From a plasmid, in NCBI RefSeq assembly GCF_056746865.1, contig NZ_JBWKMP010000005.1: a stretch of 64,000 nt of DNA; one strand, 5' to 3'. A program made the position numbers. Positions 33,001 through 39,000 of this stretch are shown piece after piece (position 1 is the first letter of the stretch; every line of letters begins with the position of its first letter).

Positions 33001-36000
33001 AATTTCTATGGTGTCGCCATCGAGAACGCGAATAACTTTCCCCTGAAGAATTTTCTGGTTAAATGTATAAGGTATTCCACCTGCATTTGCAGACTGAAAA
33101 GCGGTAAGCAGATAAATAAATATTGTTAATAAGATTTTCATAAAAGATTAACGTTAATTTGTCTGTGCAATGGATAGAGCGTTATTCTTATTTTCTTCCT
33201 GCCGCTTCATCGAAAAATGATGATTTTCCTACTGCTGCGGCATCATACTGAAATGAATATCCAAAATCATCGTCATGCTCAAAACCTGTATTTTCTCCAT
33301 TTTTTAGTCTGGAAAGAATAATCTCAAGTTGACTGATTATATCTTCCCTTTCACTATGACGAGTGCCTTGTAAGAGAATAGTTACTTGTTGCAAAGGATA
33401 TGCATGTTCAATCCATGCCTGGCTAGGTCCAGAGTGCGTTGTATATAAATTTTTTTGTGCCGAAATATTATTCAGAAAACAGTTTAAGTCATCATTGGAA
33501 TAAATTTCTTTAATATTGTTGATGTTGGATGTTAGTTTTACAAGTTGGAATGGTGGAGAATTTTTGTCTTCATTGTTGTCTCCTTTATCGTATTCTGGAA
33601 ACACAATTAACAAAGGTGCACCATTAGTTCTCTTCATAAAACGGGTTACTAGCCGCCCAATATATTTATTGGACATATGCTGTTCAATGTCCAGGACAGC
33701 ATATTCCTCCGCTGGGAACATTTTGTTTTTTTCGATGGATTTAATTTTTCTGGTAAGATGAATGTTTCTGATAAGCAAACCTACTATCAGGAAGTAAATA
33801 AATATCCAGAATAAAAAATCACTCTGTAGTTGTTCTATCATAAGTGAATCCTCTAATTTGTTAATGGACAAATCATTACCCGTTCATCAATGTTTGTAGG
33901 AAGTTCGCCAGGAGTAGGGACGCGTTCTCCTCGCTGGGCGGCTTGTGCCAGTGTTCGTAGCAGCAACACGCTGGCATGAAATATGGCCTGTTCTTTTGTG
34001 GCTGCGCTTGTTTCCAGGTCGAAATCACTCAGAGTCACAACGACTTGCCCGTTTCTGTTCTCGACCGTTGCCGGGTAGGGAACAAAATAGGGAGCGATTT
34101 TGCTGGTTTGCTTGCGTCGGGCATCGAGTTTACTGACAAGTTGATAAGCCCGAAGGTGTGTGTATCGTTTCAACATGTTCAGGGAGCGATGGCCTGAAAT
34201 AGCGGCAACCTCAATGACGTTCAATGTACCAAGTTCGAAAAATCGGCTGATAGCCTCATGACGGAGGTCATGAAAATGCAAGTTTTCTATCTTCAGTTCC
34301 TGAAGTGCTGTTCGCCAGGCACTTTTGAATCCCGAAGAGGTATAAGAAAAAATATTACCGTTAAGCTGTGTCGGCAGCATTTGCAGGTAATTACGGGCTT
34401 TCCTGGATAGCGGAACATCGCGTGGAGCACCGTTTTTGGTTGTTGGAAGATGAGCTACCCCATGTTGCAGATCGACGTGTTCCCAACGCAATGACAAGAT
34501 TTCACCTTGTCGCATTGCTGTTTCCAGCGCCAGATGAAAAATGACGTAAAGAGCCTGATTTTTTTCTTTGAAATACCGCGAAAGTCGGCGTTCTTCTCCT
34601 GAAGTCAGGCGACGATCGCGCCCGCTACTGATTTTGGGTTTTCTGACCAGTTCGACAGGATTCATGCGGCATGTTCCCCATTCCACACGGGCGATATTGA
34701 ATAATGATGACAACAGGGCAAGTTCAAGACGGACGGTGTTTCCGGTTATTTGACGCCCCGTTCGTGGGTTAATTTGCGCCAACCGTTGATCCCGATAATT
34801 GGCAATATCAACAGTGGTAATGTCATCCATATAGCGTTCAGCAATAGGGTGACGTTTAATCACATTTACGCGATAAAACTCCTGTAGATGGCCTTTTTTG
34901 TGGATGGATACTGTCTTCAGGTATTTGTCCAGCGCCCGGCTGATTGTCATTTTGCGAATTTTGATTTTCTGAAACATATCCCCTCCAGACAAAAAAGGGG
35001 GGAAGGTAGAGATTCTTGCTTCGAAATGCAATATCACCGTGCCAATCCGGTATCTGGACAACGGCAAAAGTGAACTTCACTACCAGTACGTACAATATCG
35101 GGAAAAACACCCGAAATCTGAGCATTGGCGTACATGCGTACTGTTCGTGGACATACCTTAATGGTGCACCTTTTGGTGGGTTTCAGCAGGTATACTCCGA
35201 CCAAAACAAGGTTTGGTATGTGAATAATTATGCGTGGGGAAATTATGAGTCCGGCGGCACAATTACTGTTACATGCCTGAATCTTCCTGGTGCTGGGATT
35301 TAACCGAAGGGGCAACAATAAGCATCAACGTGTTCCTCATCAACGCCATCACCAATGCCATACATGCGTGTACCTGTCATGATAAATCCGGTCGGGCATT
35401 GAATGGGTTTGTAGTAGATAGATCCTCCACTTTTCCCGCCAATGAAGTGATTCATTGCTACAGATGATTGATACCACTTACAGGCGGAGTAGTTCACTTT
35501 ATTGCCTCCAGACCACCGACCGGATTGGCACGGAGGCCAGTGCCAATCCGGTACGTGGCAGAAAAATGGCGGCGGTACAGTACAGATGGTTACTGCGACA
35601 GCAAGTGACTGGAATCAGCCAATTGCCACCGCGACTTGCCCTTCAGGAAAGAAAGTTACAGGAGGTGGTGGAATGTGCAGCTTTTCAAATGCCATTCTCA
35701 AGCGTTCTTCCCCCTCCGGTAACAGTGCATGGGTAGCTGGTTGCAGCCAAAACACCAACCAGAATCAGTATTATTCAGTCACTACTTATGCATTGTGTCA
35801 GTGAGTATTCTGGTATGAATTAGCGGAAGCAGTGAACAGTGATGTAGTAGCTGCCATATAACGTACCGTTATACGCACTCCAGTTCATCTCGCCGTTTGC
35901 ATCTGGATTGTCTGTAGGCCAGACACGCGTCATCGCGGTTTCCTTTCCATCTATGCGATATGTATTAACGCAAAGTTTGAATTTTCCTAGAGCCTTCGTT

Positions 36001-39000
36001 GTGGTTGGGTACAAGGTGAAGGATGTTACTGATGTCCACGGCGCAGATGAACCTATTGATTTCCACGAACCGGATTGGCACTGGCCTCCGTGCCAATCCG
36101 GTACGTGGAAAAAAATTGGCGCAGGTGATAGCCAAATTGTTACCGCTTCAGCTACTGCGTGGCGTTGGCCTGGAGCAACGGCAACATGTCCATCTGGCAA
36201 GAAAGTCATTGGTGGAGGCGGTCAATGCAGATCAAATACCGGATTTATATGGCTCACGCGTTCCATGCCTTCAGGCAACAATGCATGGACTGCCAGTTGC
36301 GACACGACCGAAGATCAAAATGGTTCAATTACAGTTTACGCCATTTGCCAGTGACGATACTTATCACTGGCAAACCACGATGTAACTACATTTCCCCGAC
36401 AGGTCAGTTCGGTGAGTACCGCCATAAAAGTTGTATTCGTCATAGAAGCCGCATTTCACAATTCGATTGGCATCATAGGTTGCAACTGACCCCGCAAAAT
36501 AATTCGGCTTCCACCCGTGCGGATTTTCTGCATTACTGACACTCCAGGTACACTGGCTGGCAGAAAAACCAGATGGCAATGGGATCTGTTGTCCATTTGC
36601 TATTTTTCCTGTCAGAACAGTGCTACCTGATGCCCTTCTCCACGTACCGGATTGGCACTGGCCTCCGTGCCAATCCGGTGTGTGGAGGGCATTAGGTGGA
36701 AAGCTCAAGGTTACTCAACTTTCCAGCACTGGTTACTTGGGGCAATTTGACTTTTGTGCCATTGCCAGAATGGGAAATGCTGAGGATTCTCATTACTGCC
36801 AGGTAGTCGAGAGTCCATCTGGTTCACGAAAATGGTACAAATACGAGCACAAGACAGGTTGTATTGCGTCCTGTGTAACTCTCAATTAAGTCTGGTATCC
36901 AAATACTGAAAATACCCCTGAGCCACAAGAGTAGTTTTGGGCCGGATAAGAGGTGATCTGATAAGTTGCGCCAGCAGGGACAGCAAAAGAGATGAATGCT
37001 GTCTTCCCATAAGATGGGTTGTTGCTCGCATTTGTGCTAATCAATGCCCCTGCAACGTATCCCTGCAATCTGGATGTGTTAGCGCAATCTCCCCCGGCGG
37101 AACCACCATTCCCTCCAGAGGCGTAAACAAACAGCGTACCACTTCCTGTATTGCGACCAGTAAATGATCCTCTGTGTGAGCCAAGATTACTGTAACTACC
37201 GTTAGAGGAACCGGAAGTTCTCCACACACCGGATTGGCACGAAAGTATCGCCCCTGTACTGTCGCGGCCTACAAGCCCGTTAGGGGAGCAGGAAGTGCCA
37301 GCCGTTGCTGTTTTTTCAAGCTGTAAATACTCGCCTGTATAGAGGCGTCCATCAGCGCGTACAGTTCCACCTTTTACCTGGCCGCCAGTATAAATCCCTT
37401 TATTATTCACGCTGCGCAACCAGGACGAATCGGACATATACCAGCCGCCACCATAGGTACTGTTCATCCAGCCTTTGCTGTTTTTTGTGACCAGCCAGCC
37501 ATTATTCGAAGTGATATCGCCGTTGGTTGTGGCTGTATTTCCTGAAATTGCGCCAGAGAACGTACCGTTACGTGCGCTGATATCGCCGGAGAGCGCGGCG
37601 GCGTTGCCGTTTAAAGTGCCGACGTTGTTCAGATTGTTGCTGTTCATATCAATCGCCGTATGCATCCTGTTAAGGTCGGGACGATTGGTTATGGAGTAAC
37701 GATATAAACGGTCGCTTTCCTGCAAATCAGCGCCAACAAGTGCCATTGCAATATGCCCGGTCGCGCAGTTCAGCCCGTAATTTGAAGGCGTGTCAGACCA
37801 GCCGCCACCCGCGCCAATCGCCTGCTTGCTGCTGTTGATGTAGCCGCCAAGCCCTTCAATCATGCTTGCTACCGAGCGCATTCCGGCTTCTGACAGGGAC
37901 TGACCGCCATTACTACAGGTCAGGGCTTCCAGACGGGATGTTTTGCTGTTCTTTGCAATACCGGTAATGTAGCTTTGTCCAAAATTGGATTCAGAAAAAC
38001 CAGATTTCAGATAGCCTTTCTGAATGAGTGTTGCTGGCGTGATTGTTTTGGGTAAAGAGCCAGCAAGTAGTGTTGATGCATTGTCAGCAACATAATTACG
38101 AACAGCGGTGTTATAGGTATTTGCGTGTTCTGCTGCATTCTGCCAGCGAACATTATTCAGATGGTTTTCAATGTTTTCATAAACTTTAGGGATAACCATC
38201 ACCATTATGCCGATGACAAGTAATACCTCAAGGAGAGATACACCTTTATCTGTCTTTTTCATTGCTCTTAATCCTCAGAATAATATTCCCGGTACGAGTG
38301 AGTAAACAAACATTCCGCCACAAAGGAACGGACCAAATGGAATATATTTTTTTTGCTTGTTTAATCCGCCAAGAGTGAAGAAAATAATTCCGCCGATAAC
38401 GGCAATAAATACAATTGAACAGGCAATCTCAGGCGTTGGAAACCATACGCCAGTTCCTGCAATAAGTAGCACATCTCCCATGCCGAAACTTTCCGTTCCG
38501 TTTTTATATGCAAAGTAAAGTCTTACAAACAGCATAATGAAGAACATCAGCATTGCACAAAACAAACCAGACAATATATTGTTATTCCATGTCTGATATA
38601 ACAGGCCAGAGAAGATAAATGTCACGGTATAAAGGCGTGGTAGTAGAAATGAAAGAAGGTCTATACAAGCCATTAATGTAAGGAAAGCATAGAAAACAAT
38701 CACTATTATAGATTGAATCAGTGATAGCTGGTTTAATGAAAGATACAGAACGGCAAGCGTTGTCAGTATCAGACAGTAATATTTCTCTGTGCCGGTTTTA
38801 TAAGATACATTAAGTTTATTTAAACGGAATTTTACTTCATTGTAGGCGTAGCATTGACAGACGATATTTGCACAGCAAAGTATCGCCGTATTAAATATGC
38901 TGTTTAGCATAAGTTACCTTACCATGTATTTATTGTAGACATAGCGTGCGTATTTGATTCTTTTCTGTTCGTTACTTTCTTTGAAACCAGCGTTATAACT

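What the first reader, a model, noticed from the sequence alone, without database searches (positions are those of the whole stretch)
35038..37240. Four-segment shufflon offering at least seven alternative PilV C-termini
Seen in sequence: eight 19-bp repeats in alternating orientation delimit four segments, each with two convergent ORFs beginning with PDWHGGQCQSG(T/V)W, next to a tyrosine recombinase. Established knowledge: Rci-mediated inversion swaps PilV tips and recipient lipopolysaccharide specificity in liquid matings.
Basis: partly seen in the sequence, partly recalled or inferred. Interest (0 to 1): 0.5.

Follow-up and report, generated by a model that had tools for sequence, protein, structure and literature searches.

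The report
Known IncI2 plasmid PilV shufflon
This is the well-studied "shufflon" of an IncI2 conjugative plasmid (here one carrying the colistin-resistance gene mcr-1), a set of four invertible DNA cassettes that lets the plasmid swap eight alternative tips onto its mating-pilus adhesin; it matches the experimentally characterised shufflon of plasmid TP114 and is not new.

Summary
Eight perfect 19-bp sfx repeats (GTGCCAATCCGGTNNNTGG) lie at 35039-37240 in strictly alternating orientation, against none expected by chance. They bound four segments of 455-536 bp. Each segment carries two convergent, in-frame PilV C-terminal coding tails. The segments sit between rci (a tyrosine recombinase, 33853-34977, minus strand) and the constant 345-codon part of pilV (37228-38262, minus strand).

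The interpretation also holds, with two refinements. There are eight alternative tails, not seven. The "PDWHGGQ" prefix is only read-through of the neighbouring inverted repeat, not part of any PilV.

The window is an IncI2 plasmid carrying mcr-1. Its shufflon is the TP114 type: the rci DNA is 100% identical, the four segments are 99.4-100% identical, and all eight tails match TP114's except for one residue. In TP114, inversion, the dependence on Rci and the recipient lipopolysaccharide specificity of all eight variants were shown experimentally (PMC9045228, PMC10654706).

Near-identical public IncI2 plasmids carry the same segments in different orders and orientations, with pilV fused to tails A, B', C' or D. 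That is the expected footprint of active shuffling.

Verdict: a real feature, correctly interpreted and already known. Interest is low.

The parts
33853..34977 (-). rci, the shufflon-specific tyrosine recombinase (374 aa)
   Evidence: Pfam Phage_integrase, residues 123-276, E=4e-24. 76% identical to R64 Rci over 373 aa. DNA 100% identical to TP114 rci. Annotated as WP_000486716.1 in near-identical plasmids and in R721. Motif residues R156, K181, H236, R239, H263 and Y272 are present.
35039..35057 (+). sfx 1 (variable triplet ATC), the outermost site on the rci side
   Evidence: Its left arm, TGCAATATCACC, is unrelated to the others.
35058..35512 (.). Segment S1, the C/C' segment. Tail C is read on + (35040-35303, 83 aa after CQSG). 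Tail C' is read on - (35530-35300, 72 aa).
   Evidence: Both tails are 100% identical to R721 and TP114, and 82% and 93% identical to the R64 C-segment tails. The C' name comes from the annotation 'shufflon protein C'' in NZ_CP127260.1.
35513..35531 (-). sfx 2 (triplet CGG)
35540..35558 (+). sfx 3 (triplet ACG), head-to-head with sfx 2 across the 8-bp spacer GGAGGCCA
35559..36062 (.). Segment S2, the TP114 B/D segment, absent from R721. Tail D is read on + (35541-35804, 83 aa). Tail B is read on - (36080-35820, 82 aa).
   Evidence: 100% identical to TP114. No counterpart in R721. Tail B is 57% identical to the R64 B tail and tail D is 53% identical to the R64 B' tail.
36063..36081 (-). sfx 4 (triplet TCG, the 'g' type reported as new in TP114)
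   Evidence: PMC9045228.
36090..36108 (+). sfx 5 (triplet ACG); spacer TGGCCTCC
36109..36639 (.). Segment S3, the IncI2 'BD' segment. Tail B' is read on + (36091-36354, 83 aa). Tail D' is read on - (36657-36364, 93 aa).
   Evidence: 100% identical to R721 and TP114. 75% identical to the R64 B' tail and 83% to the R64 D' tail.
36640..36658 (-). sfx 6 (triplet ACG)
36667..36685 (+). sfx 7 (triplet GTG); spacer TGGCCTCC
36686..37221 (.). Segment S4, the A/A' segment. Tail A' is read on + (36668-36889, 69 aa). Tail A is read on - (37239-36886, 113 aa) and is the tail currently fused to pilV.
   Evidence: 90% and 82% identical to the R64 A-segment tails. One substitution (A65V) relative to TP114 tail A. 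The 'PilVA = long tail' naming follows the depositor's annotation of LC567087.1.
37222..37240 (-). [quoted passage not shown]
   Evidence: Its left arm is the pilV constant sequence.
36886..38262 (-). pilV as currently assembled (458 aa, variant PilVA). The constant part is codons 1-345 (37228-38262).
   Evidence: Pfam Shufflon_N (PF04917), residues 33-345, full model length, E=5e-167. The 345-aa constant part and 69-113-aa tails match the published TP114 description.
38275..40020 (-). Upstream type IVb pilus genes of the same operon: A24 prepilin peptidase (38275-38910), lytic transglycosylase (38914-39396) and major pilin PilS (39463-40020).
   Evidence: ORFs. Names come from the annotation of the near-identical plasmid NZ_CP042888.1 (99.8% over the rci-pilV region queried). 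NCBIfam hit for the transglycosylase.

Best explanation
This is an active Rci/sfx multiple-inversion switch (a shufflon) at the 3' end of pilV on an IncI2 conjugative plasmid. It is of the four-segment, eight-variant type described for plasmid TP114.

Inferred mechanism. [quoted passage not shown] It exchanges strands in the 7-bp core GTGCCAA and inverts whatever lies between the two sites, whether one segment or a group. The site is asymmetric: the 12-bp right arm is conserved and the left arm is not, so only inversions are allowed, not deletions between direct repeats.

Each sfx lies in frame (C-Q-S-G-x-W). Whichever of the eight tails comes to abut the fixed sfx at 37222-37240 therefore becomes the C-terminus of the PilV minor pilin, the tip adhesin of the type IVb thin pilus. 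In this copy the expressed form is PilVA.

The eight tails bind different structures in the core oligosaccharide of recipient lipopolysaccharide. A donor population therefore carries a mixture of recipient specificities for mating in liquid or in the gut.

Shown here: the anatomy, the reading frames, identity to TP114, and different arrangements in sister plasmids. Taken from the literature: Rci dependence, the crossover site and the receptor specificities.
For: Sites. There are 8 perfect sfx sites in alternating orientation, with 0 expected by chance.

Tails. All 8 tails are open and in frame, and the constant part is 345 aa. Pfam Shufflon_N ends at residue 345.

Recombinase. Rci has a Phage_integrase domain and the catalytic motif residues, and is 76% identical to R64 Rci.

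Match to TP114. The rci DNA is 100% identical, the segments are 99.4-100% identical, and 7 of 8 tails are identical, with the eighth differing at one residue.

Footprint of shuffling. Seven four-segment IncI2 records (the window, NZ_CP042888, NZ_CP127260, NZ_CP133322, NZ_CP019199, NZ_CP063156 and TP114) show seven different orders and orientations of the same segments. Other records have pilV fused to D (NZ_CP016405, NZ_CP070231), to B' (NZ_CP019690) or to C' (R721). The 8-bp spacers between head-to-head sites occur in both orientations, as expected after group inversions.

Literature. In TP114 there are four segments, eight sfx and eight variants. All variants were detected in populations, a delta-rci mutant was locked in one variant, and complementation restored shuffling. 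Variant-specific transfer in broth was also shown (PMC9045228). LPS core receptors were mapped for six of the eight variants (PMC10654706). IncI2 shufflon heterogeneity within single clones was measured with long reads (PMC5430464).
Against: Nothing in the sequence argues against it. The limits are these. A single assembled sequence cannot show that inversion happens in this particular host. Shufflons are known to be mis-assembled (PMC5430464), so the order S1-S2-S3-S4 may be just one isoform, or a consensus, of a mixed population. My sample of sister plasmids was ranked by collinearity with the query, which biases it towards records with S4 next to pilV. The arrangement frequencies therefore mean nothing.
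Confidence: 0.96

Rival explanations
1. A frozen or fossil shufflon: the repeats and cassettes are present, but the system no longer inverts on this plasmid, so only PilVA is ever made.
For: Only one arrangement is visible in the window. Some IncI2 records carry damaged shufflons, with partial or duplicated segments or an IS inside segment A. Loss of segments is reported in the literature (PMC5430464).
Against: The rci gene is intact, and its DNA is 100% identical to the experimentally active TP114 gene. All eight sfx sites are perfect. All eight tails are open and essentially identical to functional TP114 tails. Sister plasmids at 99% identity or more differ in arrangement.
Confidence: 0.03
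2. An R64-type (IncI1) shufflon with seven variants, as the first reader's wording ('at least seven', 'IncI1 reference') leaves open.
For: The sfx core and right arm are the same, and six tails are 75-93% identical to R64 tails.
Against: R64 has seven sfx sites and a D segment with one ORF that cannot invert alone. The window has eight sites and four two-ORF segments, with D' sharing a segment with B'. Near-identical relatives are typed IncI2, MOBP, MPF_T. DNA identity to the R64 segments is only 71-81%, against 99-100% to TP114 and R721.
Confidence: 0.01

Closest known systems
TP114 shufflon (IncI2; NZ_MF521836.2; Allard et al. 2022, PMC9045228; Allard et al. 2023, PMC10654706)
   Same: Four invertible segments and eight sfx sites with the same variable triplets (ACG, CGG, ATC, GTG, TCG). 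A 345-aa constant PilV part and 69-113-aa tails. The rci DNA is identical and the segments are 99.4-100% identical. All eight tails are identical except A65V in tail A.
   Different: Only the current arrangement differs: the window reads rci|C-seg+, B/D-seg+, B'D'-seg+, A-seg+|pilV, while the TP114 record reads S2+ S1- S3- S4+. The plasmid's accessory content also differs, since the window carries ISApl1-mcr-1-pap2 and three TnpB elements.
R721 shufflon (IncI2; NC_002525.1)
   Same: The same Rci protein accession is annotated on near-identical plasmids and on R721. Segments C, B'D' and A are 98.9-100% identical in DNA, and their six tails are 100% identical in protein.
   Different: R721 has three segments and six sfx sites. 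It lacks S2 (tails B and D). In the record, pilV is fused to C'.
R64 shufflon (IncI1; NC_005014.1), the founding member
   Same: The same mechanism and site architecture. Rci is 76% identical. Tails A, A', B', C, C' and D' are 75-93% identical.
   Different: R64 has seven sfx sites, and its D segment carries one ORF and has one inward-facing site. Its B segment pairs B with B', whereas here B' is paired with D', and a diverged B/B'-like pair (57% and 53% identical) forms S2. The plasmid backbone is different (IncI1, MPF_I).
Serine-invertase host-range switches (phage Mu Gin, P1 Cin, and the Min multiple-inversion system of p15B)
   Same: They work alike in outcome: inversion swaps the C-terminal part of a receptor-binding protein to change target specificity (from my own knowledge).
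   Different: They use a different recombinase class (serine invertase plus Fis enhancer, against the tyrosine recombinase Rci) and different sites. This is an analogy only and was not tested here.

Membership tests
Shufflon (Rci/sfx multiple inversion system of I-complex plasmids) | 19-bp sfx repeats with the 7-bp core GTGCCAA and the conserved 12-bp right arm TCCGGTNNNTGG | tested here: met
   8 sites with 0 mismatches and 0 expected by chance. The consensus matches the published GTGCCAATCCGGTNNGTGGA (PMC5430464) and the core/right-arm description (PMC9045228).
Shufflon (Rci/sfx multiple inversion system of I-complex plasmids) | Each segment is flanked by sfx sites in inverted orientation | tested here: met
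   The strands alternate + - + - + - + -.
Shufflon (Rci/sfx multiple inversion system of I-complex plasmids) | Asymmetric site: the left arm is not conserved and is not a mirror of the right arm | tested here: met
   The left arms are TGCAATATCACC, GGCGATACTTTC, and GCAC followed by the 8-bp spacer in either orientation. None resembles the right arm. The functional consequence, no deletion between direct sites, comes from the literature only (Gyohda 2006, cited).
Shufflon (Rci/sfx multiple inversion system of I-complex plasmids) | An adjacent rci gene encoding a tyrosine recombinase | tested here: met
   Pfam Phage_integrase. 76% identity to R64 Rci. R-K-H-R-H-Y motif residues present.
Shufflon (Rci/sfx multiple inversion system of I-complex plasmids) | The segments encode alternative C-termini in frame with a constant PilV N-terminal region (Shufflon_N) within a type IVb pil operon | tested here: met
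Shufflon (Rci/sfx multiple inversion system of I-complex plasmids) | The segments actually invert, dependent on Rci | not testable with these tools
   Indirect evidence only. Seven different arrangements occur in seven near-identical records, and four different tails are fused to pilV in public records. Direct evidence exists for TP114 only (PMC9045228).
TP114-type IncI2 shufflon (four segments, eight PilV variants) | Four two-ORF segments, including the B/D segment and the TCG-type sfx, with eight tails matching TP114 | tested here: met
   S2 is 100% identical, and the tails are identical except for one residue.
TP114-type IncI2 shufflon (four segments, eight PilV variants) | IncI2 backbone | tested here: met
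   The closest relatives, at 99% identity or more, are typed IncI2/MOBP/MPF_T. The window starts with a repA gene.
R64-type IncI1 shufflon | Seven sfx sites, with a single-ORF D segment that cannot invert alone | tested here: not met
   The window has eight sites and no single-ORF segment. The R64 layout was checked directly in L004.

The most novel reading that the evidence does not exclude
The only mildly new points are evolutionary and epidemiological.

First, segment S2 as a whole looks like a diverged counterpart of the R64 B segment: its two tails are 57% and 53% identical to R64 B and B'. The TP114 'PilVD' adhesin, described as having no counterpart and with an unknown receptor, would then be a B'-family paralogue rather than an orphan.

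Second, the full four-segment complement is a minority state among sequenced IncI2 plasmids: about 65-69 records carry S2 against about 510 carrying S3. An mcr-1 plasmid that keeps S2 might therefore reach recipients that most mcr-1 IncI2 plasmids cannot. Collapse of the shufflon in short-read assemblies could also explain part of this deficit.
Probability: 0.35. Interest if true: 0.2.

Novelty: already known. Interest (0 to 1): 0.08.

Why it matters
It has little value as a discovery, because the system, its recombinase, its sites, its eight adhesin variants and most of their LPS receptors are published. It has practical value for annotation. The region should be annotated as one pilV gene plus seven silent alternative 3' cassettes, not as 'hypothetical proteins'. 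Its arrangement in any assembly should be treated as one isoform of a mixed population. Because the plasmid carries mcr-1, the complete eight-adhesin repertoire is relevant to how widely this colistin-resistance plasmid can transfer in liquid and gut environments.

Tried and rejected
- NCBIfam gave no model hit for PilV, the prepilin peptidase or PilS. Pfam was used instead.
- Accession look-ups for MF521836 and AP005147 failed. The records were found as NZ_MF521836.2 through a segment search and as NC_005014.
- I considered reading meaning into the fact that S4 lies next to pilV in nearly all fetched four-segment records. I rejected this because the hits were ranked by collinear coverage of my query, which selects for exactly that. 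Records found by other queries have D, B' or C' fused instead.
- I considered that the 'PDWHGGQ' prefix might be a conserved protein motif. I rejected this because it is the translation of the adjacent inverted sfx plus spacer, and it changes to PDWHWPP when the spacer is flipped.
- I considered an IncI1/R64 identity and rejected it.
- The A versus A' naming could not be taken from the RefSeq annotation. I used a depositor's 'pilVA' label in LC567087.1, so that label rests on annotation only.
- I did not use the large protein, metagenome or structure searches, because the answer did not need them.
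Full report
**Observation**

I read 34000-39000 and searched the whole window for GTGCCAATCCGGTNNNTGG with up to two mismatches allowed. There are exactly eight matches, all perfect, at 35039(+), 35513(-), 35540(+), 36063(-), 36090(+), 36640(-), 36667(+) and 37222(-). None of 100 dinucleotide-preserving shuffles produced a match. The strands alternate strictly, so the sites form four inverted pairs around four segments: S1 35058-35512, S2 35559-36062, S3 36109-36639 and S4 36686-37221. The three internal junctions are head-to-head pairs separated by an 8-bp spacer.

**Coding content**

Every site was read in the frame G|TGC|CAA|TCC|GGT|NNN|TGG. Each of the eight sites opens an ORF that runs into its segment and stops near the middle. 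The tails are 83, 72, 83, 82, 83, 93, 69 and 113 aa after the CQSG. The two convergent stop codons in each segment lie between a 4-bp overlap and a 15-bp gap apart, so the segments are essentially all coding.

The PDWH prefix is the translation of the neighbouring inverted repeat plus the spacer. It reads PDWHGGQ or PDWHWPP depending on spacer orientation, and it is absent at the two outer sites. It would never be part of an expressed PilV.

**Flanking genes**

On the minus strand, pilV (36886-38262, 458 aa) matches Pfam Shufflon_N over the whole model at residues 33-345 (E=5e-167), ending exactly at the CQSG junction. The tail currently fused is the 113-aa tail of S4.

Sixty-one bp beyond the other end of the repeat array lies a 374-aa tyrosine recombinase gene (33853-34977, minus strand). 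It has a Pfam Phage_integrase domain and is 76% identical to R64 Rci. It carries the R156, K181, H236, R239, H263 and Y272 motif residues. The ORF listing entry of 404 aa from a TTG start is an over-extension into the first repeat.

Upstream of pilV are the prepilin peptidase, a lytic transglycosylase, the PilS major pilin and the rest of a type IVb pilus operon. These assignments come from ORFs and from names on the near-identical plasmid NZ_CP042888.1 (99.8% over the rci-pilV region queried).

**What the window is**

The window starts at a repA gene. It carries ISApl1-mcr-1-pap2.

A megablast of 33800-38300 against PLSDB finds 806 plasmid records, 427 of them at 99% identity or more. Nearly all are conjugative plasmids of about 60 kb from E. 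coli, Shigella or Salmonella. Only 17 records are collinear over at least 80% of the query. All fetched relatives are typed IncI2/MOBP/MPF_T.

**Comparison with the references**

- *R721 (IncI2, NC_002525.1).* It has six sfx sites and three segments. These are S4, S3 and S1 at 98.9-100% DNA identity, and their six tails are 100% identical to the window's. S2 is absent.
- *TP114 (IncI2, NZ_MF521836.2).* It has eight sfx sites and the same four segments at 99.4-100% identity, with rci DNA 100% identical. All eight tails are identical to the window's apart from A65V in the long S4 tail.
- *R64 (IncI1, NC_005014.1).* It has seven sfx sites. One segment has a single inward-facing site and one ORF (D'). 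Its tails are 75-93% identical to six of the window's tails.

Using these relationships, the segments are named as follows.

| Segment | Name | Tail on + | Tail on - |
|---|---|---|---|
| S1 | C | C | C' |
| S2 | TP114 B/D | D | B |
| S3 | IncI2 'BD' | B' | D' |
| S4 | A | A' | A (currently expressed) |

The naming also draws on 'shufflon protein C'' in NZ_CP127260.1 and 'pilVA' in LC567087.1.

The published description of TP114 fits the window point for point. It lists four segments, eight sfx sites, a 345-aa constant part, 69-113-aa tails, the triplets GTG, ATC and the new TCG, and eight variants including a new 'D' (PMC9045228).

**Evidence that the switch is used**

A single sequence cannot show inversion, but sister plasmids can. 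Seven four-segment IncI2 records show seven different arrangements.

| Record | Arrangement, rci to pilV |
|---|---|
| window | S1+ S2+ S3+ S4+ |
| NZ_CP042888 | S3+ S1+ S2+ S4+ |
| NZ_CP127260 | S3+ S2- S1+ S4+ |
| NZ_CP133322 | S2- S1+ S3+ S4+ |
| NZ_CP019199 | S1+ S2- S3+ S4+ |
| NZ_CP063156 | S3- S2+ S1+ S4+ |
| TP114 | S2+ S1- S3- S4+ |

Records found through other queries have pilV fused to tail D (NZ_CP016405, NZ_CP070231), tail B' (NZ_CP019690) or tail C' (R721).

The 8-bp spacers between head-to-head sites occur in both orientations, in the window and across the records. This is what inversions of multi-segment groups would leave behind.

The constant adjacency of S4 to pilV in the first set is a selection artefact of ranking hits by collinearity, and I draw nothing from it.

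**Mechanism**

The anatomy shown here fits the published mechanism, which I take from the literature. [quoted passage not shown] Crossover is in the 7-bp core, and the asymmetry of the site prevents recombination between direct repeats (Gyohda et al. 2006, as cited in PMC9045228).

In TP114 all eight pilV variants coexist in a population. A delta-rci mutant is locked in one form, and rci supplied in trans restores shuffling. Single-variant derivatives transfer to different E. coli strains in broth (PMC9045228).

Receptors in the LPS core oligosaccharide were assigned for PilVA, A', B, C, C' and D'. Those of B' and D remain unknown (PMC10654706).

Long-read work on IncI2 plasmids showed mixed arrangements within single clones, frequent mis-assembly, and variable segment content between plasmids (PMC5430464). 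By that paper's formula, four two-ORF segments allow 2^4 x 4! = 384 arrangements.

**Small additions**

- Both tails of S2 are homologous to both tails of the R64 B segment: 57% identity (E=8e-39) and 53% identity (E=4e-30). Tail D is also 57% identical to the window's own B' tail. 'PilVD' is therefore a B'-family paralogue rather than an unrelated novelty.
- S2 is found at 99% identity or more in about 69 PLSDB records, against about 510 for S3. The full eight-variant complement is thus a minority state in assemblies, although assembly collapse may contribute.

**Verdict**

Eight is the exact number of alternative termini, and the IncI2 TP114 shufflon is the exact match. It is already known in detail, so interest is low.

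Noticed in passing
window 23253-26898: An ISApl1 (IS30 family)-mcr-1-pap2 cassette lies downstream of the large relaxase gene. The MCR-1 match scores 1302.7 bits over 541/541 positions. The ISApl1 transposase is split into two ORFs (23253-23762 and 23759-24253) by a 1-bp deletion in an A-run at about 23714, relative to the intact copy in pVE362 (NZ_AP018355.1). This is either a real frameshift that immobilises the element or a homopolymer sequencing error.
   Followed up: partly
window 2301-3509 (-), 6345-7553 (+), 11059-12267 (+): Three copies of a 402-aa TnpB (RNA-guided endonuclease, IS200/IS605-type) element. The first is 94% identical to the other two and inverted relative to them. The last two sit in stretches that repeat directly with 4702-4714 bp spacing (5845-6144 equals 10559-10858 at 100%), which suggests a duplicated block. 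No PLSDB record covers this region collinearly beyond 86%.
   Followed up: partly
L001 (NZ_CP042888.1) 23423-23441: In this otherwise 99.8-100% identical plasmid, the sfx next to the pilV constant region carries the triplet ACG in front of tail A, where the window has GTG. Its PilVA therefore starts CQSGTW rather than CQSGVW. This suggests exchange beyond the 7-bp core, gene conversion between repeats, or an assembly artefact.
   Followed up: no
L010 (NZ_CP038334.1), L006 (NZ_AP027715.1), L014 (NZ_CP070231.1), L013 (NZ_CP016405.1): Irregular shufflons occur in public IncI2 records. One has a duplicated C segment plus a 188-bp fragment of segment A. Two have unassigned inserts of about 270-310 bp between sfx sites. 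One has an IS200/IS605 element (tnpA plus tnpB) inserted inside segment A. These are either mis-assemblies of mixed populations or aberrant recombination products.
   Followed up: partly
window 35532-35539, 36082-36089, 36659-36666: The 8-bp spacer between head-to-head sfx sites is GGAGGCCA at the first junction and its reverse complement TGGCCTCC at the other two. The orientation pattern differs between sister plasmids, and TP114 has one variant, TGGCCCCC. This is consistent with group inversions carrying the junctions along with them.
   Followed up: partly
window 35559-36062 (segment S2): S2 (tails B and D) is present at 99% identity or more in about 69 PLSDB records, against about 510 for S3. 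Both S2 tails are 53-57% identical to the two tails of the R64 B segment, so TP114's 'PilVD' is a B'-like paralogue.
   Followed up: partly
window 32626-33141 (-) and 33188-33871 (-): Immediately downstream of rci are a 227-aa ORF with no family match and a 171-aa secreted thermonuclease-like ORF with weak NCBIfam hits (E about 1e-10 to 1e-11, well below the cut-offs). Both are conserved in IncI2 relatives. Their function in the plasmid is not known to me.
   Followed up: no
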